Source: Candidatus Heimdallarchaeum aukensis | GTDB lineage: Archaea; Asgardarchaeota; Heimdallarchaeia; Heimdallarchaeales; Heimdallarchaeaceae | Reading direction: 5' to 3' | DNA: 64,000 nt | Assembly: GCA_021513695.1 (NCBI GenBank) | Contig: CP084166.1 | Location: 960,001-1,024,000 of the forward strand | In this document: positions 8,067-35,625 of the stretch, in pieces | Layout: the number at the start of each line of letters is the position of its first letter | Position numbering within the stretch: position 1 is the stretch's first letter | Notes under the pieces: model-generated | What the model was told of the DNA's origin: nothing | The model's database searches: none | What the model saw: the letters and a program-made list of their open reading frames with translations, nothing else | Made by a program: the position numbers and the translations under genes

Positions 8067-8187
8067 TCTAGGCCCACCTAATCCATTTGCACTTTTTTTC
8101 GAAACGCTTTTAAACATGCTCAAATATTTTTCATTGATTGAAGAATCTTTCTTCGGTCATAATAATAACAAATTAGAAGGAATTATT

Positions 8188-10281
8188 ATGAAAAAAAGAA
8201 TGTTAATAACAAGCATTTTCATTTTTGCCTTTTTAGTAGCAGTTATTCCTTTAACTGCAAATGCTAAAGTCCTTTCTACTAGAGCTACAAAGGATTTGGG
8301 CGGTGGAGATGCTTATAACGCATATAGTGCATCTGATTATGCAACCCTTATTAGTACACCTATTTCGGGTTACGGAGATATTTACTATTCCAGTGATCAG
8401 TATGATCAATACAAAGTAGCAGTAAGTTCAGGAGATCAAGTAACGATTGAGTTTACTGCCCCTAGTGGAGCAACAGGAATTGATCTTCCTGTTTATGACA
8501 CTGACAAGTCTCGAATACTCATTCGTTACAACATCCAGACTTTCTCCGAGACTGTTACTGCTTCTGGCAACGGTTACATTTACTTTACTATAGATGCAGA
8601 CACTTATGATGATAGAGGTACTTATTATCTCAGTGTTTCTAAATCTGGAGCAGTTGACACTACTCCACCTACTGTAAGTATTACTGACCCTGCTGATGGA
8701 GCAACTGTTTATTCTGCAGATGTCACTGTTTCATGGACTGGTTCTGACAATGTCGGCATAGACTATTACGAGGTCAGAATTGATGGTGGTTCATGGATCA
8801 ATGTCGGAACATCTACAAGCTACACCTTTACTGGTTTAGCTGACGGTAGTCATACTGTAGATGTTAACGCTTATGACGCTGCAGGAAATGTTGGTTCTGA
8901 CAGTGTAACTTTCACTGTTGATACCAGTGCTCCTCCTACTGAGTATACTTTCACTGGTTCACTTAGTGCTGGACAGGACAGTACTCAACACACCTTTAAC
9001 GTTCCTTCCAACACCATTAAGATCGAGGTTCAGCTTCAAATGCCCAGTGGTGCAGATTACGATTTAAGCCTTTGGGACTCTAATGGAGCTCGAACTGGTG
9101 GTTGGACTTCAACTGATAGTAGTACTAAAACAGATATTGCCAACAGTGATTATTCTGGTTATTCTGCTGATCCTGAGTGGGTTACTGTTGATCCTCCTGC
9201 TGTTTTTGGTACCTGGAAGACTGGTTGTTATGCTTACAGTGGTTCTGGTACTTACACCATCACTGTTACTCTAACGCTCAGTGGTCCAGATACTACTGCA
9301 CCTACTGTTACTATAACTGACCCAACAGATGGTTCTACAGTTAATTCTGCTGATGTTACTGTTTCATGGACTGGTTCTGACGATGTTGGTATTGACCACT
9401 ATGAAGTCAGAATCGATGGTGGTTCATGGATCAATGTTGGAACATCTACAAGCTACACCTTTACTGGTTTAGCTGACGGCAGTCACACTGTAGATGTTAA
9501 TGCCTATGATGCTGCAGGTAACGTTGGTTCTGACAGTGTGACTTTCACTGTTGATACCACTACCAATCCTGTTGAAAAATGGGCAGTTATTGTTGGTATT
9601 AGTGACTACAAAGCTATTAGTGATCTTTCTTACTGTGATGAGGATGCAACTGACTGGTATTATCAACTTACCAGCAGTCAAATGAGTTATGACCATATCA
9701 CTGTTTTAGGAGATGGATATTCTTCTAACTATCCTCAATGGGATGGCTATGCTACAGAGTACAATGTTAAACAAGCTTTGAACAACATGGTTAATTCTGC
9801 TGACTCTAATGACATTATAGCTTTCATCAGTTCTGGTCATGGTTCGGGTAATGGTGCAGGTTCTTCATACTTGTGTATGTGGGACTGCAGTTCAGGAGAA
9901 AACGGAGAAGATGGAAATCTCTATGACACTGAATTAGCAGCAATTCTTGACGGAGCTGTTGCTGACAGGATTTTCGTCTTCTTAGACCATTGTTACAGTG
10001 GTGGTTTTGGAGACGACCTCATGAATATGCCTAACAAAGACCGTGTTTACCTAACAACAACCTGTACAGAAAATGGTTATGGTTATGATGACTCCACTCA
10101 TCAAAATGGTGCTTGGACTTACTACTTCCTAGATTACTCTTGGCAGCAACATTTCGGTGGTGCAGCTAATGTTGCTATGGAAGACATCTTCGACTATGCT
10201 TTAGCTGCTTATCCATACAGTGGTGGAGACACTCCTCAAGAGTTCGATGGAAACACAGGTGCGTACTTCTACCTGGCATAA
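8188..10281 (+). CDS. Secreted multidomain protein. It has a signal peptide, two tandem near-identical Ig/FN3-like domains and a C-terminal caspase-like (clan CD; C13/C14-type His-Cys dyad) peptidase domain.
   Basis: MKKRMLITSIFIFAFLVAV signal, preceded by AGAAGG. Repeated motif 'TxPTVxITDPxDGxTVxSADVTVSWTGSD' twice. 'SSGHG' plus 'LDHCYSGGFG' His/Cys dyad. The ORF track starts at 8116, but Met at 8188 with an SD is the more likely start. Confidence 0.7.
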   Translation: MKKRMLITSIFIFAFLVAVIPLTANAKVLSTRATKDLGGGDAYNAYSASDYATLISTPISGYGDIYYSSDQYDQYKVAVSSGDQVTIEFTAPSGATGIDLPVYDTDKSRILIRYNIQTFSETVTASGNGYIYFTIDADTYDDRGTYYLSVSKSGAVDTTPPTVSITDPADGATVYSADVTVSWTGSDNVGIDYYEVRIDGGSWINVGTSTSYTFTGLADGSHTVDVNAYDAAGNVGSDSVTFTVDTSAPPTEYTFTGSLSAGQDSTQHTFNVPSNTIKIEVQLQMPSGADYDLSLWDSNGARTGGWTSTDSSTKTDIANSDYSGYSADPEWVTVDPPAVFGTWKTGCYAYSGSGTYTITVTLTLSGPDTTAPTVTITDPTDGSTVNSADVTVSWTGSDDVGIDHYEVRIDGGSWINVGTSTSYTFTGLADGSHTVDVNAYDAAGNVGSDSVTFTVDTTTNPVEKWAVIVGISDYKAISDLSYCDEDATDWYYQLTSSQMSYDHITVLGDGYSSNYPQWDGYATEYNVKQALNNMVNSADSNDIIAFISSGHGSGNGAGSSYLCMWDCSSGENGEDGNLYDTELAAILDGAVADRIFVFLDHCYSGGFGDDLMNMPNKDRVYLTTTCTENGYGYDDSTHQNGAWTYYFLDYSWQQHFGGAANVAMEDIFDYALAAYPYSGGDTPQEFDGNTGAYFYLA

Positions 10282-10311
10282 CCTTTTTCTTTTTTTCTTT
10301 TTTCAGAGATT
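10282..10311 (+). terminator. Oligo-T tract (CCTTTTTCTTTTTTTCTTTTTTC) right after the stop codon. Possible archaeal intrinsic terminator.
   Basis: Seen directly; archaeal RNAP terminates at T-runs. Confidence 0.3.
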
Positions 10312-10486: not shown

Positions 10487-10693
10487 TTATTTTTCTGTTA
10501 TCCACATTTTATTGAAAGCTTTTCTTGTTGTTAGAATACTTGCTCCTATCCACGTTCTGTGCATTCTATCTGTGGTTGCTGTAATTCTTACAACTGCATT
10601 TTTTGGTGCAACTTTTTTCAATTCATAATCTATTCTTTCTCTCATTCCAGGTATCATTGAACTTCCTCCACATAAGATAACATTAGGCCACAA
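10487..10693 (-). pseudogene. Orphan C-terminal fragment of an actin-family gene (about 65 residues, lokiactin/actin-like). The rest of the gene is absent.
   Basis: Translation NVILCGGSSMIPGMRERIDYELKKVAPKNAVVRITATTDRMHRTWIGASILTTRKAFNKMWITEK aligns residue-by-residue with the actin C-terminus ([65 protein letters not shown]). It starts on TTG with an in-frame stop two codons upstream. Only ~240 nt separate it from the next gene, so a full ~1.1 kb actin cannot be present. Confidence 0.6.
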
Positions 10694-11307: not shown

Positions 11308-12135
11308 TATTTGTGGGGACTCTAATAGTAAGATATGAACATTCAAAAACTATCTACTCTTTTTAAGAGATGCAGAGTCCCCAAAAAGATAATAATAAAA
11401 GTTTTTTATGAATATATTGGTTCAAAGAATGGTTTGAGGACAGTAGCATGGAAGAATGGTTTAACACACCAAACATTATGGTATTGGGTAAAGAAGTTCA
11501 GGCTCTTTAGGAAAAGTTTACATAGAATTGTAGCAGAGAGAGGGGGAATACCAGAGATTATAGTAGTTGATGAGACGGAGATTAAGACCTCTCAAGGCTC
11601 AATGTATATGTGGTTCGCGTTAGATCCTTACAACAAGACTTTACTGGGTTTTAGTATTACTAAAGGACGGAGTAATCTTGAATGTTTACTAACTTTCCGT
11701 TATTGGCTCAAATGTTGGGGTTTTAAGCCCCGTATTGTCGTTACAGATGCAGGGGTATGGTATCCTGCCTTACTTCGTCTAGGTATCAAAATCTCCGTTA
11801 TCAAAGGTGGTTTACGCTCCTATATTGAACGTTTTAATGCTACTCTTAAGAGTTATCGTTGGTTTCATTCTATTCTCCACTGCACTTGTCCTATCCGTGC
11901 CGTCTATGGCTCTACTCATCTTTCTGGTTTTCTTACTCTCTTTATGCTCCATTATAATTTCGTTCGTCCTCATCAGAGCTTGGGACATCCTCCCCTTAGT
12001 TCCTTTTTACCTAGGAGGTGGTATAAAAACTAGACACTACCAAGAAAGCAGGTCCAAAAATTAATTTTTATTAATGTGGGGGTTTATGTCGGAATTATGA
12101 ACTATTTTCAGATTATAGACCCCCACAAAGTAAGA
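11308..12135 (+). mobile_element. IS6-family-like insertion sequence (~0.83 kb), a single DDE transposase gene flanked by imperfect terminal inverted repeats.
   Basis: Left end TTTGTGGGGACTCTAATAG (11310-11328) versus the reverse complement of the right end CTTTGTGGGGGTCTATAATC (12112-12131). An internal transposase ORF lies between them. Confidence 0.6.
11335..12033 (+). CDS. DDE transposase, IS6-like (VDETEIK … VVTDAGVWY … ERFNATLK motifs).
   Basis: DETxIK and ERFNxxLK strings are characteristic of IS6/IS26-type transposases. N-terminal HTH-like region. Confidence 0.65.
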   Translation: MNIQKLSTLFKRCRVPKKIIIKVFYEYIGSKNGLRTVAWKNGLTHQTLWYWVKKFRLFRKSLHRIVAERGGIPEIIVVDETEIKTSQGSMYMWFALDPYNKTLLGFSITKGRSNLECLLTFRYWLKCWGFKPRIVVTDAGVWYPALLRLGIKISVIKGGLRSYIERFNATLKSYRWFHSILHCTCPIRAVYGSTHLSGFLTLFMLHYNFVRPHQSLGHPPLSSFLPRRWYKN

Positions 12136-12372: not shown

Positions 12373-14013
12373 TTATTCTTTTTTAGTCCATACATCAATT
12401 ACATCTTTAGATTTCTTGAGAGTTAAAGCGTAAAAGATAACTGCCAAAAAACCAAAAGAACCTGCAACTATCCAGAAAACATAAGGTTTTTGCATCTGTA
12501 TGTCTGTTCTTACATTCAATTTTATTTCTGTTACATCATGTATCCAGGATTTCCCATCTGAAACAGCTACTTTAATGTAATATGAACCAGGTTCTACACC
12601 ATCTAGATCCCACAAGAATGAAGAGTTGTTAACATTTGTTGCTAAAAGATCCCAATATATTCCATCTTGAGAAACAAAAATAGAAGCATTAAGTTTGTCA
12701 TTATCTTCATCTGATGCAATCCATTGAATAGTATAGTTATCAAATACTTGATTAGGGTCTGAAGGGTTTTTTACCTCAATATTAGGCAAATTATTAGTGT
12801 AAGTCAGTTGAGGATTTTCTGCAAGAAAAAGTAACGATGGAAAAATCAATTCACAATTACTAATCACTTCATCAGCATCTGGGTTAAAATAATCAGTCCA
12901 ATAAGAGTAACTGTTTGTTCCAAAAGTTTCAATTGTGAAGCTCTTAATGTTGTGATATAAATAAGAATAGTCTCCCCATTCTCCAGAAGTTATATAGCCA
13001 TAAATTGTATCATTCCATAGGGGAAAATTAAGGATCTCTTGTAATTCAAGTAATAGAGCGTTGAACTCTTTTTCATCTTTTTCTGGTAATGAACCATTAA
13101 TTCCCCAAGGTGCTATTATTGCTTCAACACCACTGTGTAAACTTACAGCAAAATTAAAAGAATGATTATACATGAAATTACGTAATGCTCTTGTTTCTGG
13201 TTCACTGAAGGGATAAGCGCCATGATATGTGTCATCTCTCCTAAATGGAGAAGCACCTTGGTCGCCCCAAAAAGCTCCATAATTCCTATTTAGGTCTACT
13301 CCTCCTGGTCTGTCTTCTCCAATGTACCCGCTTCCGTCAATGTCTTTTTCTTCGATGTCAGAGCTGTTTGTTTCAGTGTTCCAGAAATATACTCTCTCCT
13401 TTTCATCGTCTAAACTTCCATCAAGATCGTCATCAATTGGAGCCAAGTTTTTGCGTTGTTCTGGATACCAGTGTAAAATAGAGATACCATCAGGATTAAG
13501 CATGGGAATTACATAAATTTCTGTACTTTGAAGTAAGTAGTCAAAAATTGAATCATAAATTGTGTTAAATATAATCCAATCAATAAAGTATAGTGCATTT
13601 TCAACAGTAATTACTTCTCTAGCATGATGAGCTGCAACAATGTAATACTCAGTTTTAGCAGAAGTAACAGTTTCATCGGTTAAACGAACAGCCCAGATAG
13701 TTCTGTTTTCCCAAGTCTTCCCAATGGAAAAAACTTCCACTAATTCAGGAAAAGAATTATTCAGAATAATGAGTTTATTTGTAACTTCAGTGTAATTATG
13801 ATATGGTCCAAGTGATTCTCCCCAATAAACAAAATCTTCTCCTGGTATGTCAGAGGGAGCATTAGAAAACTCGTCCCAAATCCAAGAATATTCTGGTTCT
13901 TCTGCTAAATAAACATACTCTGGAGTATTCTTAGCAGAAATTGAAGATATTAAATGTGAGTTTAAGAATAAAACAATTACAATTAAGGAAATAACTTGAT
14001 ACTTTTTCATCAT
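12373..14013 (-). CDS. M14-family zinc carboxypeptidase with a signal peptide and a C-terminal TM anchor.
   Basis: '…YIVAAHHAREVIT…' (the HxxE/HAREW-type zinc-binding region of M14). N-terminal signal. C-terminal hydrophobic helix plus a KKSK tail. Confidence 0.65.
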   Translation of the reverse strand: MMKKYQVISLIVIVLFLNSHLISSISAKNTPEYVYLAEEPEYSWIWDEFSNAPSDIPGEDFVYWGESLGPYHNYTEVTNKLIILNNSFPELVEVFSIGKTWENRTIWAVRLTDETVTSAKTEYYIVAAHHAREVITVENALYFIDWIIFNTIYDSIFDYLLQSTEIYVIPMLNPDGISILHWYPEQRKNLAPIDDDLDGSLDDEKERVYFWNTETNSSDIEEKDIDGSGYIGEDRPGGVDLNRNYGAFWGDQGASPFRRDDTYHGAYPFSEPETRALRNFMYNHSFNFAVSLHSGVEAIIAPWGINGSLPEKDEKEFNALLLELQEILNFPLWNDTIYGYITSGEWGDYSYLYHNIKSFTIETFGTNSYSYWTDYFNPDADEVISNCELIFPSLLFLAENPQLTYTNNLPNIEVKNPSDPNQVFDNYTIQWIASDEDNDKLNASIFVSQDGIYWDLLATNVNNSSFLWDLDGVEPGSYYIKVAVSDGKSWIHDVTEIKLNVRTDIQMQKPYVFWIVAGSFGFLAVIFYALTLKKSKDVIDVWTKKE

Positions 14014-33085: not shown

Positions 33086-34231
33086 TTAAAGAATTTGTGT
33101 AATGTTTTTTTCTACCCATTCAATAGGTTGATCGAACACTTCTTCTTTTCCTGCTTTCCATGATTTTGTTTCTGTATCAAAGTTTTTGTGATAAAACCAA
33201 TAGAGCATACTGTGGATATGATCCAGATGGTAATACTCAAGTTTGTCACATATCCCCCATAATAGATTGCTAAAAGCAGATGTATATACGGGAGGTAAAT
33301 TAAGTCTCCATAAAAACCCATCTTCTAGAAGAACAAATCCTGAATCAAAGGGAACCGGTGAATCATGAAGTAATTTGTAAAGTTTAAACTTGACTTCATC
33401 TGAACAATAAGCTCTAAACATTATTAGATCAACAAATTGAACTTTAGCTCTCCTATAGCCTAATCTGTATTCTTTGATTACATTATCGTTGAGAAATTTT
33501 ATTCTGCGAGTAATTGTAGCAGGAGAAACAGAAAATTTATTTGCTAATTCAATTTTTGAAAATTCTCTAGCATCCTTTGTTAACTGACGTAGTAATAAAA
33601 GGTCGATTTCAGTTAGTTTTTCCATCACATTTTTACATTGGTGAGGTTGATAGTTGTTTTCAAAAGACATGGTTAAGAAGTGCTTAAACCAAGAACCTAG
33701 GTTTATTTTTCCATCTTCAATTTGCCAGACCCATTCTCCTTTGTCATTGTCATAAAAAGTGAAATCAGGAAAATTGCTGTGGTGATAATCTAGTGAAGGA
33801 AGAGTATTGAAGCTGTCAATTATATTGAGTTTCATTAGTTCTGTAAAAAGATCTTCCAAATATCTGTATGCAGACTGAGGAATGTTGAATTGCAAAAAAA
33901 GTCCTTGTCTACTACCAATAACCCTGTTTCTGTAACTTGTGAAATTATGAAAATCGGCAAGTTTTTCCAAGAATTTTATATTAGATAATTTATTTGATTC
34001 GACAAAAACACTGTAGGTTTTAAGACCTATTGAATCCACACAAATTCTGGCTTGAACACTTTCTAACCCAGCTTTATTTCCAACTTTTTTACCAATATAC
34101 CCTTCAGAGACTAAAATATTATAATGTGCTTTAGCTGTTTTATCTGTAATTCCTAATGCACTAGCTATTTCAGTGAAACTAGCTAATGGATTCTTCTGTA
34201 AATACTGAAATTCTTTGAAGTACGGAATCAT
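33086..34231 (-). CDS. Dual-HTH regulator (two Lrp/AsnC-type HTH-like segments).
   Basis: 'SFTEIASALGITDKTAKAHYNILVSEGYI' and 'LLRQLTKDAREFSKIELANKFSVSPATITRRIKFL'. Confidence 0.45.
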   Translation of the reverse strand: MIPYFKEFQYLQKNPLASFTEIASALGITDKTAKAHYNILVSEGYIGKKVGNKAGLESVQARICVDSIGLKTYSVFVESNKLSNIKFLEKLADFHNFTSYRNRVIGSRQGLFLQFNIPQSAYRYLEDLFTELMKLNIIDSFNTLPSLDYHHSNFPDFTFYDNDKGEWVWQIEDGKINLGSWFKHFLTMSFENNYQPHQCKNVMEKLTEIDLLLLRQLTKDAREFSKIELANKFSVSPATITRRIKFLNDNVIKEYRLGYRRAKVQFVDLIMFRAYCSDEVKFKLYKLLHDSPVPFDSGFVLLEDGFLWRLNLPPVYTSAFSNLLWGICDKLEYYHLDHIHSMLYWFYHKNFDTETKSWKAGKEEVFDQPIEWVEKNITQIL

Positions 34232-34281: not shown

Positions 34282-34740
34282 TTAAATAACTCTTATACCA
34301 ACGTATGGATCTCCTTCACTTCCTCCAGGGGGGTCAAAAATCATTATGTCAGTTACCGATAACCATCCATTGTTATTGGTTATGATAGAAGCTTCAACTA
34401 TATAGTCTCCAGAAACAGTAGCATGATTATAGAAAATAACTTCAAATCTTAATGATTTCAAGGAAGTAAATACGTGATACATAACTGTACTTTCTTCATT
34501 AATGGGGTTAGTTAGCGTCACTACTAAATAGTATTTTTCAGTGGTTGAACTTGTATCTACATTAACTGTTAAGTAAGTATAAATGTCAGTATCGATATAA
34601 TACGCGTCATCAATTATAATTTCATGTACATCAACAGAAAGTGTTCTCACAGATGCTGCATCTACTGCAGCGATTTGAGAAATAAAAAATAAACTAGAGA
34701 TCAAAAGCAAATATGAGAGCAATTTATATTTACTATTCAT
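34282..34740 (-). CDS. Small secreted protein (signal peptide), unknown function.
   Basis: N-terminal hydrophobic signal; beta-rich composition. Confidence 0.4.
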   Translation of the reverse strand: MNSKYKLLSYLLLISSLFFISQIAAVDAASVRTLSVDVHEIIIDDAYYIDTDIYTYLTVNVDTSSTTEKYYLVVTLTNPINEESTVMYHVFTSLKSLRFEVIFYNHATVSGDYIVEASIITNNNGWLSVTDIMIFDPPGGSEGDPYVGIRVI

Positions 34741-34824: not shown

Positions 34825-35625
34825 TTAGAGATAGAAGAAAACTCCGGTATCGCCATCAAATTCTTGAGGTGTATCTCCACCGTCATAAGGATAAACGGAT
34901 AGAGCACTATCAAAAGTCTCTTCCATTGAAGCTGAACCACCATATATTCCAATAAGAGTGTATTCTAAGAAGTAATAGGTCCAAGCTCCATTTTGATGAG
35001 TAGGATCATCATATCCGTATCCATCGTCGGTGCAGGTTGTGGTCATATACACCTTAGCAGCATTAGCGTTTTCCATAACTTCATTCATACCGCCACTGAA
35101 GCAGTGATCAAGGAAAATGAAGGTGTTACTTACAGATGGGGCCATCATATCTTTAAGTTCTGAGTCATAAATTAGACCATCTTCTCCATTTTGACCAGCA
35201 CTTGTGTCCCACATGCATAATGCTTGAACATAGACACGAGTCCATCTGCTTCTTCCACCAATGTTGACCTCTGTTCCATGACCTGAACTTATGAATGCTA
35301 CGATATCGTTTTCGTCAGCTTGTGCAAGTATGTTTGCCCAAGCAGTTTTTACGTTATATTCTGTGGCTAATCCATCATATTGTGGATAATTTGCAGGATT
35401 GCTATCTCCTAATAATACTATTTGATAGCCTAATCCATTTAAGTAATTATACCAATCGGTAGCATCTTCATCGCAGTATGATAAGTCGCTAATTACGTCA
35501 TAGTCGCTTATACCGATAATAAGAGCATATTTGTCAACAGGATCAACTACAGCTTTTGCTGCTGTTATTGATGTAAACAATACCATCAAACCGATAAAAC
35601 CCATAAGGATTGTTTTTCTTTTCAT
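34825..35625 (-). CDS. Secreted caspase-like (clan CD) peptidase, paralog of the C-terminal domain of 8188..10281.
   Basis: Signal peptide. 'YALIIGISDYDVISDLSYCDEDATDWY', 'FISSGHG', 'FLDHCFSGG' collinear with the domain in 8188..10281. Confidence 0.65.
   Translation of the reverse strand: MKRKTILMGFIGLMVLFTSITAAKAVVDPVDKYALIIGISDYDVISDLSYCDEDATDWYNYLNGLGYQIVLLGDSNPANYPQYDGLATEYNVKTAWANILAQADENDIVAFISSGHGTEVNIGGRSRWTRVYVQALCMWDTSAGQNGEDGLIYDSELKDMMAPSVSNTFIFLDHCFSGGMNEVMENANAAKVYMTTTCTDDGYGYDDPTHQNGAWTYYFLEYTLIGIYGGSASMEETFDSALSVYPYDGGDTPQEFDGDTGVFFYL

What the first reader, a model, noticed from the sequence alone, without database searches (positions are those of the whole stretch)
8188..10281. 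Secreted caspase-like peptidase with a very recent intragenic domain duplication; standalone paralog at 34825-35625
The two Ig-like domains are duplicated at the nucleotide level: 8681-8935 and 9301-9553 are near-identical by eye (roughly 85-90%). Both caspase-like domains (His in SSGHG, Cys in DHC[YF]SGG) are predicted to be exported. Extracellular clan-CD peptidases in archaea are little studied. The repeat is also a hotspot for slippage or recombination, and for mis-assembly.
Basis: seen in the sequence. Interest (0 to 1): 0.55.

Follow-up and report, generated by a model that had tools for sequence, protein, structure and literature searches.

The report
Secreted Asgard caspase-like protease, homogenised Ig repeats
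This gene from a Heimdallarchaeum-like Asgard archaeon encodes an exported, multi-domain caspase-family (C14) cysteine protease of an already annotated type, and its two look-alike Ig domains are an old duplication kept similar by gene conversion, not a recent one.

Summary
The repeat is real: 8656-8942 and 9289-9575 are 287 nt, 86% identical, in frame, with sharp edges.

The gene (8188-10281) encodes signal peptide, PPC-like domain 1, Big_7 Ig-a, PPC-like jelly-roll domain 2, Big_7 Ig-b, and a C-terminal Peptidase_C14 domain with an intact His551/Cys602 dyad. The model has a metacaspase/paracaspase-like fold.

The paralog at 34825-35625 is a signal peptide plus the same C14 domain, 58% identical.

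"Very recent duplication" is not supported. The same five-domain architecture occurs in Ca. Heimdallarchaeum endolithica (91-97% identical, annotated "caspase family protein") and in three further lineages. Within each gene the two Ig copies are closer (dS 0.3-0.55) than positional orthologues are between distant lineages (dS about 1 or more). Synonymous sites group by genome too. That pattern indicates concerted evolution by intragenic gene conversion, and it rules out mis-assembly.

The family is exported, mostly Asgard, Bathyarchaeia and Thermoplasmata, with shuffled accessory domains. One homologue is fused to subtilisin in Lokiarchaeum ossiferum.

The most likely role is extracellular Arg/Lys-directed proteolysis. 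That role is inferred, not shown.

The paralog sits in a conserved cassette with a 152-aa secreted Ig-like protein and an HTH regulator.

Verdict: a new member of a known kind, of modest interest.

The parts
8103..8110 (+). TATA-box-like element (TTTTAAAC region) upstream of the probable true start at 8188
   Evidence: Read directly from the sequence; inference only. Together with a GAAGGA purine run 8 nt before ATG 8188, and with orthologues P0122, P0123 and P0126 starting at the equivalent MKK/MRK, it favours 8188 over the upstream in-frame ATG at 8116.
8188..10281 (+). CDS of the 697-aa secreted multi-domain C14 caspase-family peptidase
   Evidence: ORF list. Orthologues at 64-97% identity with the same architecture.
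8188..8265 (+). Sec-type signal peptide, MKKRMLITSIFIFAFLVAVIPLTANA (26 aa), with predicted cleavage after ANA
   Evidence: Translation. Hydrophobicity and charge heuristic, and conservation of such N-termini across the family. No dedicated predictor was run.
8266..8655 (+). Domain 1: beta-rich, PPC-like accessory domain (residues 27-156)
   Evidence: Pfam PPC E 0.007, 17.6 bits, below the 25.9 cut-off. Found as a module in 17 related proteins. No significant PDB sequence hit. Not detectably related to domain 2.
8656..8942 (+). Ig-a: Big_7 Ig-like domain, repeat copy 1
   Evidence: the repeat finder. Pfam Big_7, two stretches, 76.8 bits. Codon analysis.
8943..9288 (+). Domain 2: PPC / beta-jelly-roll accessory domain (about residues 247-367), unique sequence between the repeats
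   Evidence: Profile A3 matches the C-terminal beta-jelly-roll domain of Thermococcus subtilisin Tk-SP (3afg residues 423-514) at E 6.6e-5. It is a recurrent module in 71 domain hits, including a clostripain-type (PF03415) protein.
9289..9575 (+). Ig-b: Big_7 Ig-like domain, repeat copy 2
   Evidence: the repeat finder. Pfam. Gene-conversion analysis.
9559..10278 (+). Peptidase_C14 catalytic domain with caspase/hemoglobinase fold. Catalytic His551 (9838-9840) and Cys602 (9991-9993). Predicted S1 Asp residues at 9643-9645 (CDED motif) and 9985-9987 (DHC motif).
   Evidence: Pfam PF00656 E 4.5e-9. AF2 pLDDT 96.5. Foldseek PDB. Profile alignment to yeast Yca1 and AtMC4. Coordinates checked.
10282..10305 (+). 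Oligo-T tract directly after the stop codon, a likely archaeal transcription terminator
   Evidence: Sequence read; inference.
34825..35625 (-). Standalone paralog: 266 aa, signal peptide plus C14 domain (His116 at 35278-35280, Cys175 at 35101-35103)
   Evidence: ORF. Pfam PF00656 E 8.5e-13. 58% identity to the large protein's catalytic domain. Orthologues in 13 loci.
34282..34740 (-). 152-aa secreted Ig-like beta-sandwich protein, an obligate downstream neighbour of the standalone paralog
33086..34231 (-). 381-aa double winged-HTH protein, third gene of the conserved cassette and a possible regulator
   Evidence: Pfam HTH_24 and HTH_AsnC-type. Present in all 13 cassette loci. Distant homologues lie near other family members in 12 more loci.

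Best explanation
The gene encodes an exported cysteine endopeptidase of the caspase/metacaspase family (MEROPS C14, clan CD).

A Sec signal peptide takes it out of the cell. Two unrelated PPC-like beta-sandwich domains and two Big_7 Ig-like domains form an N-terminal stalk. These are inferred to serve stability, spacing, or binding to substrate or cell surface. The C-terminal domain carries a His-Cys dyad and the two acidic S1-pocket residues of metacaspases, so it most likely cleaves after Arg or Lys. Its most probable job is extracellular breakdown of proteins for uptake, the lifestyle proposed for sediment Asgard, Bathyarchaeia and Thermoplasmata archaea.

The two Ig domains are an old tandem module duplication. 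The copies keep exchanging sequence by intragenic gene conversion, which is why they look recently duplicated.

Shown: the repeat, the domain architecture, the fold, dyad conservation, family-wide signal-peptide-like N-termini, and the concerted-evolution pattern.
Inferred: actual export, Arg/Lys specificity, the nutritional role, and the role of the accessory domains.
For: Family and fold:
- PF00656 is above its cut-off for both paralogs. It was the only Pfam family to match the isolated catalytic domain of the large protein (E up to 10) and the paralog (E up to 1), so no C11, C13 or C25 match.
- AF2 pLDDT 96.5. Foldseek top hits are metacaspase-9, MALT1, GSU0716, legumain and Yca1, at TM 0.65-0.72.
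- The family profile aligns to Yca1 at E 7e-12. Catalytic His and Cys and both S1 Asp positions (C-x-x-D and D-x-C) match.
- SGHG and D-H-C-x-S/A-G-G are near-universal in 120 homologues.

Export:
- N-terminal signal-like sequences in both window proteins and in 117 of 148 M-starting homologues.

Extracellular degradative context:
- The homologue in cultured Lokiarchaeum ossiferum is fused to a Peptidase_S8 subtilisin, with 4 Big_7 and 3 PPC domains.
- A Myxococcota homologue is fused to a Porphyromonas-type peptidyl-arginine deiminase and proprotein-convertase P domains.
- Domain 2 resembles the Tk-SP subtilisin jelly-roll and also occurs in a clostripain-type protein.
- A signal-peptide-bearing M14 carboxypeptidase lies 2 kb away at 12373-14013.
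- The family is spread over Asgard, Bathyarchaeia and Thermoplasmata MAGs. Extracellular clan-CD peptidases are documented for Thermoprofundales (MBG-D) sediment archaea, which that paper describes as sharing protein-degrading capacity with Bathyarchaeota (PMC6461988).

Gene conversion:
- The same dom1-Ig-dom2-Ig-caspase architecture occurs in 5 lineages.
- Within-gene Ig-a/Ig-b identity is 0.88-0.90 with dS 0.29-0.55. Positional orthologues between distant lineages are 0.74-0.82 identical with dS about 1.0-3.4.
- Informative sites group by genome 23-37 times against 0-2 by position. This includes 6-23 sites in codons with unchanged amino acids.
- Window versus H. endolithica shows a clean breakpoint. 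13 position-grouping sites lie in nt 3-69 of the repeat and 12 genome-grouping sites lie in nt 129-267.
Against: - No biochemical or expression data exist for any member.
- Signal peptides were judged by heuristic, not by a trained predictor.
- S1 specificity rests on sequence alignment at 12-19% identity to solved metacaspases.
- There is no conserved operon with peptide transporters. The neighbours of the large gene differ between orthologues.
- The copies in the window itself have not been homogenised recently (dS about 0.55). Conversion is therefore episodic and is inferred from comparison, not observed.
- Part of the within-genome similarity at non-synonymous sites could reflect parallel selection.
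Confidence: 0.6

Rival explanations
1. One reading: a very recent intragenic duplication of the Ig domain in this lineage.
For: 86% nucleotide identity over 287 nt with sharp edges.
Against: The doubled architecture, with the same unique domain 2 between the copies, is present in Ca. H. endolithica and three more lineages down to 64-76% protein identity. dS between the window's copies is about 0.55, which is no younger than the split from H. endolithica (gene-wide dS 0.21-0.49). 23 of 34 differing codons are synonymous.
Confidence: 0.04
2. The repeat is an assembly artefact, a collapsed or duplicated region.
For: Close homologues P0001 and P0002 sit at contig ends inside the gene. This shows that such modular genes do break short-read assemblies.
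Against: The copies differ at 14% of positions and are separated by 346 nt of unique coding sequence in frame. The ORF is intact. The identical layout occurs in the closed CP084167.1 genome and in three independent contigs.
Confidence: 0.01
3. A cell-surface maturation or sorting enzyme: a clan-CD protease or transpeptidase that processes or attaches S-layer or other envelope proteins, in the manner of PorU, legumain or GPI8, rather than a nutritional protease.
For: Clan CD includes several transpeptidases, and legumain is among the structural matches. Ig/PPC stalks are typical of envelope-associated proteins. The paralog is strictly paired with a small secreted Ig-like protein that could be a substrate or partner. 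Several paralogs occur per genome: at least 4 in H. endolithica.
Against: No membrane anchor or known archaeal sorting signal at either end. No conserved linkage to S-layer or archaeosortase genes in the loci examined. The fusion to subtilisin in L. ossiferum fits degradation better.
Confidence: 0.15
4. A secreted weapon or defence factor that attacks proteins of competitors, partners or viruses. Under this reading the concerted yet fast-changing Ig domains reflect an arms race.
For: Extensive shuffling of accessory domains. Lineage-specific amino-acid changes are fixed in both Ig copies. The NCBIfam EACC1-associated caspase model gives a weak hit.
Against: The EACC1-type hit is far below its cut-off (39.8 vs 140 bits). 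dN/dS in the Ig domains is low, with dN 0.035-0.05 against dS 0.3-0.55. No toxin, immunity or defence-island context was seen in the gene lists of the loci examined, although no defence-system library was searched.
Confidence: 0.1
5. A non-catalytic adhesin in which the caspase fold serves as a binding module (pseudo-protease).
For: Pseudo-orthocaspases are common in bacteria (PMC6426788).
Against: His and Cys, and the surrounding motifs, are invariant or nearly so across the family. None of the 93 archaeal sequences in the PMC6426788 survey was a pseudo-variant.
Confidence: 0.04

Closest known systems
Archaeal orthocaspases with an N-terminal Big_7 domain (Klemencic et al. 2019, PMC6426788); NCBI 'caspase family protein' of Ca. 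Heimdallarchaeum endolithica (P0121, CP084167.1)
   Same: Same family and, for P0121, the same five-domain architecture at 91-97% identity per domain, with shared upstream synteny (EamA, HIT). p20-type domain with an intact His-Cys dyad.
   Different: Nothing of substance. The window gene is a species-level variant. The literature had not noted the export signal, the PPC-like modules or the homogenised Ig pair.
Eukaryotic type I/II metacaspases (yeast Yca1 4f6o, Arabidopsis MC4 6w8s and MC9 8a53, T. brucei MCA2 4afp)
   Same: Caspase/hemoglobinase fold at TM about 0.7. Catalytic His and Cys, and the two S1 Asp positions, align. Arg/Lys specificity is therefore expected.
   Different: Only 12-19% identity. 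The protein is exported rather than cytosolic. It has no N-terminal prodomain or zinc finger and no long p20-p10 linker. Ca2+ dependence is unknown. The sequence profile aligns only to the p20 part.
Secreted clan-CD peptidases of anaerobes and sediment archaea (gingipain C25, clostripain C11, legumain C13) proposed to degrade detrital protein
   Same: Exported clan-CD cysteine endopeptidases with Ig-like or PPC accessory domains and Arg/Lys preference. Same ecological groups (PMC6461988). Domain 2 is shared with a clostripain-type protein.
   Different: A different MEROPS family (C14 by Pfam). The accessory domains are N-terminal rather than C-terminal.
Tk-SP subtilisin of Thermococcus kodakarensis (3afg): protease plus beta-jelly-roll domain
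   Same: Domain 2 matches its jelly-roll domain at E 6.6e-5. It is an accessory beta-sandwich on a secreted archaeal protease.
   Different: Domain 2 carries an insertion of about 25 residues (RTGGW...PEW) and sits N-terminal to a cysteine protease, not a serine protease.
Concerted evolution of tandem Ig-like repeats in bacterial surface proteins (general phenomenon, from background knowledge, not tested against a specific case here)
   Same: Repeats within one gene stay more alike than orthologous repeats between species, through recombination.
   Different: Here there are only two copies. They are separated by a unique 115-residue domain, and the organism is an Asgard archaeon.

Membership tests
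MEROPS C14 / Pfam PF00656 Peptidase_C14 | Match to the family HMM above the curated threshold | tested here: met
   36.8 bits (large protein, C-terminal domain) and 49.0 bits (paralog) against a 21.4 cut-off. PF00656 was the only Pfam family to match the isolated catalytic domain (E up to 10) and the paralog (E up to 1), so no C11, C13 or C25 match.
MEROPS C14 / clan CD | Caspase/hemoglobinase alpha-beta-alpha fold | tested here: met
   AF2 pLDDT 96.5, pTM 0.93. Foldseek E 1e-10 to 1e-8, TM 0.65-0.72 to metacaspase-9, MALT1, GSU0716, legumain and Yca1.
MEROPS C14 / clan CD | Catalytic dyad with His before Cys, in the G-H-G and D-x-C-x-S-G contexts | tested here: met
   His551 in SSGHG and Cys602 in DHCYSGG. 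They align to the catalytic residues of Yca1 and AtMC4. Invariant in alignment A1.
Metacaspase/orthocaspase branch (Arg/Lys-specific) | Acidic S1 pocket: Asp in the C-x-x-D motif after strand 1, and Asp two residues before the catalytic Cys | tested here: met
   CDED (Asp at nt 9643-9645) and DHC (Asp at 9985-9987) align with CIND and DSC of Yca1 and CVND and DSC of AtMC4. The specificity itself is inferred.
Metacaspase sensu stricto (p20 + p10) | Recognisable p10 domain with its Ca2+-binding Asp | tested here: inconclusive
   Sequence profiles align only to the p20 part, and Pfam covers positions 2-191 of 233. The 90 residues after the Cys complete the fold structurally. No p10-specific model was available.
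MEROPS C14 | Proteolytic activity dependent on the catalytic Cys | not testable with these tools
   Needs enzyme assays.
NCBIfam NF047832 caspase, EACC1-associated type | Score above the curated cut-off (140 bits) | tested here: not met
   39.8 and 21.7 bits. Not a member.
Pfam PF17957 Big_7 (bacterial Ig domain) | HMM match above threshold, two copies | tested here: met
   76.8 bits, two stretches, against a 24.1 cut-off.
Pfam PF04151 PPC (pre-peptidase C-terminal domain) | HMM match above threshold | tested here: not met
   Domain 1 scores 17.6 bits against 25.9. Domain 2 has no Pfam PPC hit, but its profile matches the Tk-SP jelly-roll at E 6.6e-5. Both are called 'PPC-like' by resemblance only.
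Sec-dependent secreted protein | N-terminal signal peptide with n-, h- and c-regions and an A-x-A cleavage site | tested here: inconclusive
   The features are present by inspection and by a hydrophobicity heuristic, and they are conserved family-wide. No trained predictor and no experiment.

The most novel reading that the evidence does not exclude
Two readings are not excluded by the evidence.

1. The standalone secreted caspase, its strictly co-inherited 152-aa secreted Ig-like partner and the adjacent double-wHTH protein form a previously undescribed extracellular protease-cofactor (or protease-inhibitor or protease-substrate) module with its own regulator.

2. More broadly, this exported Asgard clade, rather than a cytosolic cell-death enzyme, is the archaeal sister of eukaryotic metacaspases. 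That would mean the ancestral C14 enzyme of the eukaryotic lineage was an extracellular digestive protease.
Probability: 0.12. Interest if true: 0.6.

Novelty: new member of a known kind. Interest (0 to 1): 0.3.

Why it matters
Caspase homologues in Asgard archaea have been cited as possibly inherited by the first eukaryotes (PMC5753285). In this family most members carry export signals, and homologues are fused to degradative enzymes such as subtilisin. The family is also shared with unrelated sediment archaea. All this points to extracellular protein digestion rather than programmed cell death, so their presence should be read with caution as a eukaryotic signature.

The homogenised Ig pair is a clean small example of intragenic gene conversion in an Asgard genome. 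It also shows that high nucleotide identity between repeats does not date a duplication.

Neither point changes current understanding much.

Tried and rejected
- **Exact-sequence look-ups.** Look-ups of both window proteins found nothing. Orthologues had to be reached through homologues.
- **First homologue search.** The search with the catalytic domain missed the true full-length orthologues. They appeared only when the N-terminal 460 residues were used.
- **Genome-collection scan.** It also did not return the H. endolithica orthologous locus among its best 80. The reason is unknown.
- **A duplicated two-domain unit.** I tested whether domain 1 and domain 2 are diverged copies, that is a duplicated PPC-Ig unit. 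BLASTP and hhalign found no similarity, so only the Ig domain is demonstrably duplicated.
- **Partner protein as a relative of domains 1 or 2.** I tested whether the 152-aa partner is related to domain 1 or domain 2. hhalign probability was below 2%.
- **Weak BsuPI hit.** The Pfam BsuPI hit of domain 2 (E 0.02) was judged to be noise for the same reason.
- **afdb50 fold library.** It was unavailable.
- **RNA searches.** tRNA and Rfam scans of the window were empty.
- **Promoter and terminator scan.** The bacterial-type scan was uninformative for an archaeon.
- **Literature.** No paper in the searches run here ties Asgard archaea to exported metacaspases.
Full report
**1. Observation**

The ORF runs from 8116 or 8188 to 10281 on the plus strand. 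It contains one strong direct repeat: 8656-8942 against 9289-9575. The repeat is 287 nt at 86% identity, and the 633-nt spacing keeps the reading frame. A blastn self-comparison gives E about 1e-96, and there is no third copy in the window. Sixty bases outside either edge, identity drops to 20-30%.

The second is 13 nt out of register: 8681-8935 pairs with 9314-9568 at 86.7%, not with 9301-9553. The SSGHG and DHC[YF]SGG motifs, and the paralog at 34825-35625 on the minus strand, are as described.

**2. What the gene encodes**

The probable start is 8188. Orthologues begin at the equivalent MKK/MRK. A TATA-like TTTTAAAC lies at about 8103-8110, and a GAAGGA run precedes the ATG (inference).

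The 697-aa product has six parts:
- **Signal peptide** (residues 1-26): basic n-region, hydrophobic core, and TANA|K cleavage site.
- **Domain 1** (27-156): beta-rich. It gives a sub-threshold Pfam PPC hit and no significant PDB sequence match.
- **Ig-a** (157-246): Big_7.
- **Domain 2** (247-367): its family profile matches the C-terminal beta-jelly-roll of the Thermococcus subtilisin Tk-SP at E 6.6e-5.
- **Ig-b** (368-457): Big_7.
- **Peptidase_C14 domain** (458-697): Pfam E 4.5e-9, 36.8 bits against a cut-off of 21.4.

Domains 1 and 2 are not detectably related to each other. Only the Ig domain is demonstrably duplicated.

An AlphaFold2 model of the catalytic domain is confident (pLDDT 96.5). 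Foldseek against the PDB returns Arabidopsis metacaspase-9, MALT1 paracaspase, Geobacter GSU0716, legumain and yeast Yca1, at TM 0.65-0.72 and 12-19% identity.

The family profile aligns best to Yca1 (E 7e-12). The following pairs line up:
- catalytic His: SGHG with SGHG;
- catalytic Cys: DHC with DSC;
- both acidic S1-pocket positions: C-D-E-D with C-I-N-D, and the Asp two residues before the Cys.

From established metacaspase structural knowledge, this predicts cleavage after Arg or Lys. That is an inference.

The gene ends in oligo-T tracts typical of archaeal terminators. There is no C-terminal anchor.

The paralog is 266 aa: a signal peptide followed directly by the same domain. It is 58% identical and matches Pfam at E 8.5e-13.

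**3. The organism and the family**

The closest proteins come from Heimdallarchaeaceae. The orthologue in the closed genome of Ca. Heimdallarchaeum endolithica (CP084167.1, P0121) is annotated "caspase family protein". It is 91-97% identical domain by domain and shares the upstream EamA and HIT genes. Four further MAGs carry the paralog locus in synteny.

Across a collection of one genome per species, at least 448 relatives were found. Among the best 80 loci listed, most are from Asgard lineages (Heimdall, Thor, Loki, Njord, Hermod, Harpocratesius). Some are from Bathyarchaeia and Thermoplasmata, and a few from bacterial MAGs.

An exhaustive search of 1.84 billion cluster representatives gives 171 clusters at E of 1e-30 or better, and 1740 at E of 1e-3 or better. 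In most of the 150 best hits listed the domain ends at or within a few residues of the C-terminus.

The dyad motifs are near-universal. 117 of 148 homologues that start with Met have a signal-like hydrophobic N-terminus. Most of the rest come from short contigs and are probably truncated.

The N-terminal regions are a shuffled set of the same modules. Seen combinations include caspase alone, Ig-caspase, dom2-Ig-caspase, dom1-Ig-dom2-Ig-caspase and dom2-Ig-dom2-Ig-caspase.

Two fusions are informative:
- In cultured Lokiarchaeum ossiferum the homologue is the C-terminus of a 1496-aa protein that begins with a Peptidase_S8 subtilisin, followed by four Big_7 and three PPC domains.
- In a Myxococcota MAG it follows a Porphyromonas-type peptidyl-arginine deiminase, two proprotein-convertase P domains and four PKD domains.

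Domain 2 also occurs three times in a clostripain-type (PF03415) protein.

**4. The repeat is old and homogenised, not recent**

Five proteins share the exact dom1-Ig-dom2-Ig-caspase order: the window protein, P0121, P0122, P0123 and P0126. Identity goes down to 64-76%. The second Ig domain therefore predates their divergence.

With DNA for three orthologues, I compared the 270-nt Ig cores.

| Comparison | Nucleotide identity | dS |
|---|---|---|
| Ig-a vs Ig-b within one gene | 0.88-0.90 | 0.29-0.55 |
| Same-position copies, distant lineages | 0.74-0.82 | about 1.0-3.4 (saturated) |

The non-repeat domains of the same genes also have dS above 1.

In four-sequence comparisons, informative sites that group the two copies of one genome outnumber sites that group copies by position. 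The counts are 23-37 against 0-2. Of the genome-grouping sites, 6-23 lie in codons whose amino acid is the same in all four sequences. Parallel selection on protein sequence therefore cannot be the whole explanation.

The window and H. endolithica pair shows a breakpoint:
- All 13 position-grouping sites lie in nt 3-69 of the repeat, and all 12 genome-grouping sites lie in nt 129-267.
- In H. endolithica the 3' part of the two copies has dS 0.16. The same part differs between the two genomes at dS 0.53-0.76.

This is the signature of conversion tracts covering the 3' two-thirds after the two species split.

In the window itself the copies differ at dS about 0.55, with dN 0.035. Of the 34 differing codons, 23 are synonymous. 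That is at least as much divergence as the whole gene shows against H. endolithica (dS 0.21-0.49). The last exchange in this lineage was therefore not recent.

Mis-assembly is excluded by three facts. The copies differ at 14% of positions. Unique in-frame sequence lies between them. The layout was recovered independently in a closed genome and in three other contigs. Two close homologues do end at contig edges inside the gene, so such genes do fragment assemblies.

**5. Most likely function and rivals**

The best-supported reading is an exported, probably Arg/Lys-directed endopeptidase used for extracellular protein breakdown. The Ig and PPC-like modules would act as a stabilising or binding stalk. 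The support is:
- the export signals;
- the intact catalytic machinery;
- the subtilisin fusion;
- the jelly-roll module shared with Tk-SP and with a clostripain-type protein;
- a signal-peptide-bearing M14 carboxypeptidase 2 kb away at 12373-14013;
- the distribution of the family, mostly in Asgard, Bathyarchaeia and Thermoplasmata MAGs. Secreted clan-CD peptidases (C11, C25, C13, and expressed C14B) have been reported for Thermoprofundales (MBG-D) archaea of that lifestyle, whose protein-degrading capacity is said to be shared with Bathyarchaeota (PMC6461988).

Against it: there are no biochemical or expression data, there is no conserved transporter linkage, and the neighbours vary.

Rivals are:
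- an envelope-protein maturation enzyme or transpeptidase;
- a secreted antagonistic or defence protease (the EACC1-type NCBIfam hit is far below its cut-off);
- a non-catalytic adhesin (contradicted by dyad conservation).

An intracellular cell-death caspase is unlikely given the signal peptides.

**6. The paralog cassette**

All 13 loci whose caspase is at least 73% identical to the paralog carry a 152-aa ORF 84-105 nt downstream on the same strand. In the window this is 34282-34740. None of 16 more distant relatives carry it.

The ORF has a signal peptide, no Pfam or NCBIfam match, and only seven clusters in a 5.8-billion-protein database. Its C-terminal motif FDPPGG-x-GDP has ten invariant positions and one variable one, usually Glu. 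The predicted fold is an eight-stranded Ig/FN3-like sandwich.

It evolves faster (41-97% identity) than the caspase (73-99%).

The next gene (33086-34231) encodes a 381-aa protein with two winged-HTH domains. It is present in all 13 cassette loci. Distant full-length homologues lie within 5 kb of other family members in 12 more loci, including L. ossiferum, and directly upstream of the P0123 orthologue of the large gene.

Whether this exceeds chance cannot be judged without genome-wide copy numbers.

One reading is that the standalone enzyme receives an Ig-like module in trans, where the large enzyme has Ig domains in cis. An inhibitor or a substrate is equally possible.

**7. Comparison with what is known, and novelty**

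Membership of C14 is met for the HMM threshold, the fold, the dyad and the S1 residues. A p10-specific test was not possible, and activity is untestable here.

Archaeal orthocaspases with an N-terminal Big_7 domain were catalogued in 2019 (15 proteins, PMC6426788). C14 in Asgard proteomes was noted in 2017 (PMC5753285). The near-identical H. endolithica protein is already annotated.

The finding is therefore a new member of a known kind. The added points are modest:
- family-wide signal-peptide-like N-termini;
- the modular PPC-like and Ig stalk;
- the gene-conversion history of the Ig pair;
- the conserved partner cassette.

**8. Verdict**

Interest is about 0.3.

Noticed in passing
window 34282-34740 (-), with 34825-35625 (-): A 152-aa secreted protein with no family assignment lies 84 nt downstream of the standalone caspase. 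Its predicted fold is an Ig/FN3-like 8-strand sandwich, and its C-terminal motif FDPPGG-x-GDP has ten invariant positions (the variable one is usually Glu). The pair is conserved in all 13 loci whose caspase is at least 73% identical (partner 41-97% identical) and is absent from more distant relatives.
   Followed up: yes
window 33086-34231 (-); also L014, L021, L034, L037, L038, L040, L043, L053, L064, L066, L072, L090: A 381-aa protein with two winged-HTH domains is the third gene of the paralog cassette. Distant full-length homologues (22-30% identity) lie within 5 kb of other members of the caspase family in 12 further loci, including L. ossiferum, and directly upstream of the P0123 orthologue of the large gene. 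It may be a dedicated regulator. Chance adjacency is not excluded.
   Followed up: partly
window 10487-10693 (-): A 68-aa ORF with a strong Pfam Actin match (E 2.7e-19, profile positions 328-394 of 410). It is a C-terminal actin fragment just downstream of the large gene, with no upstream continuation in frame. A 63-aa ORF sits at the same place in H. endolithica (L088 10328-10519). Its sequence was not compared with the window fragment. It may be a relic or a split actin-like gene.
   Followed up: partly
window 12373-14013 (-): A 546-aa Peptidase_M14 zinc carboxypeptidase (E 6.9e-49) with an N-terminal signal-like sequence and a C-terminal hydrophobic anchor, 2 kb from the caspase gene. It fits an extracellular proteolysis neighbourhood.
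   Followed up: partly
window 11335-12033 (+): A 232-aa ORF with weak integrase-core (rve/rve_3) matches, probably an IS transposase. The gene list of the H. endolithica locus shows no rve-type gene at the corresponding position, and gene content downstream of the caspase gene differs there.
   Followed up: partly
L040 1206-5696 (Lokiarchaeum ossiferum CP104013.1): A 1496-aa secreted protein that combines a Peptidase_S8 subtilisin, four Big_7 domains, three PPC domains and a C-terminal caspase domain of this family (63% identical). It is a dual-protease fusion in a cultured Asgard archaeon and a good experimental handle.
   Followed up: partly
L083 1941-6143 (Myxococcota MAG JAKLGA010000004.1): A 1400-aa bacterial protein that combines a Porphyromonas-type peptidyl-arginine deiminase, two proprotein-convertase P domains, four PKD domains and a caspase domain of this family (51% identical). 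The pairing is reminiscent of Arg-gingipain with PPAD and fits Arg-directed cleavage.
   Followed up: partly
L008 3468-5729 (Heimdallarchaeota MAG_147): The catalytic domain closest to the window's among the genome-collection loci (82%) sits in a 753-aa protein with a different module order: dom2, a divergent Big_7, an unassigned domain of about 190 aa, Big_7, caspase. This shows rapid domain shuffling among close relatives.
   Followed up: partly
(search behaviour): The word-seeded protein search and the genome-collection scan, both queried with the catalytic domain, failed to return the 97%-identical H. endolithica orthologue. It surfaced only when the N-terminal region was the query.
   Followed up: no
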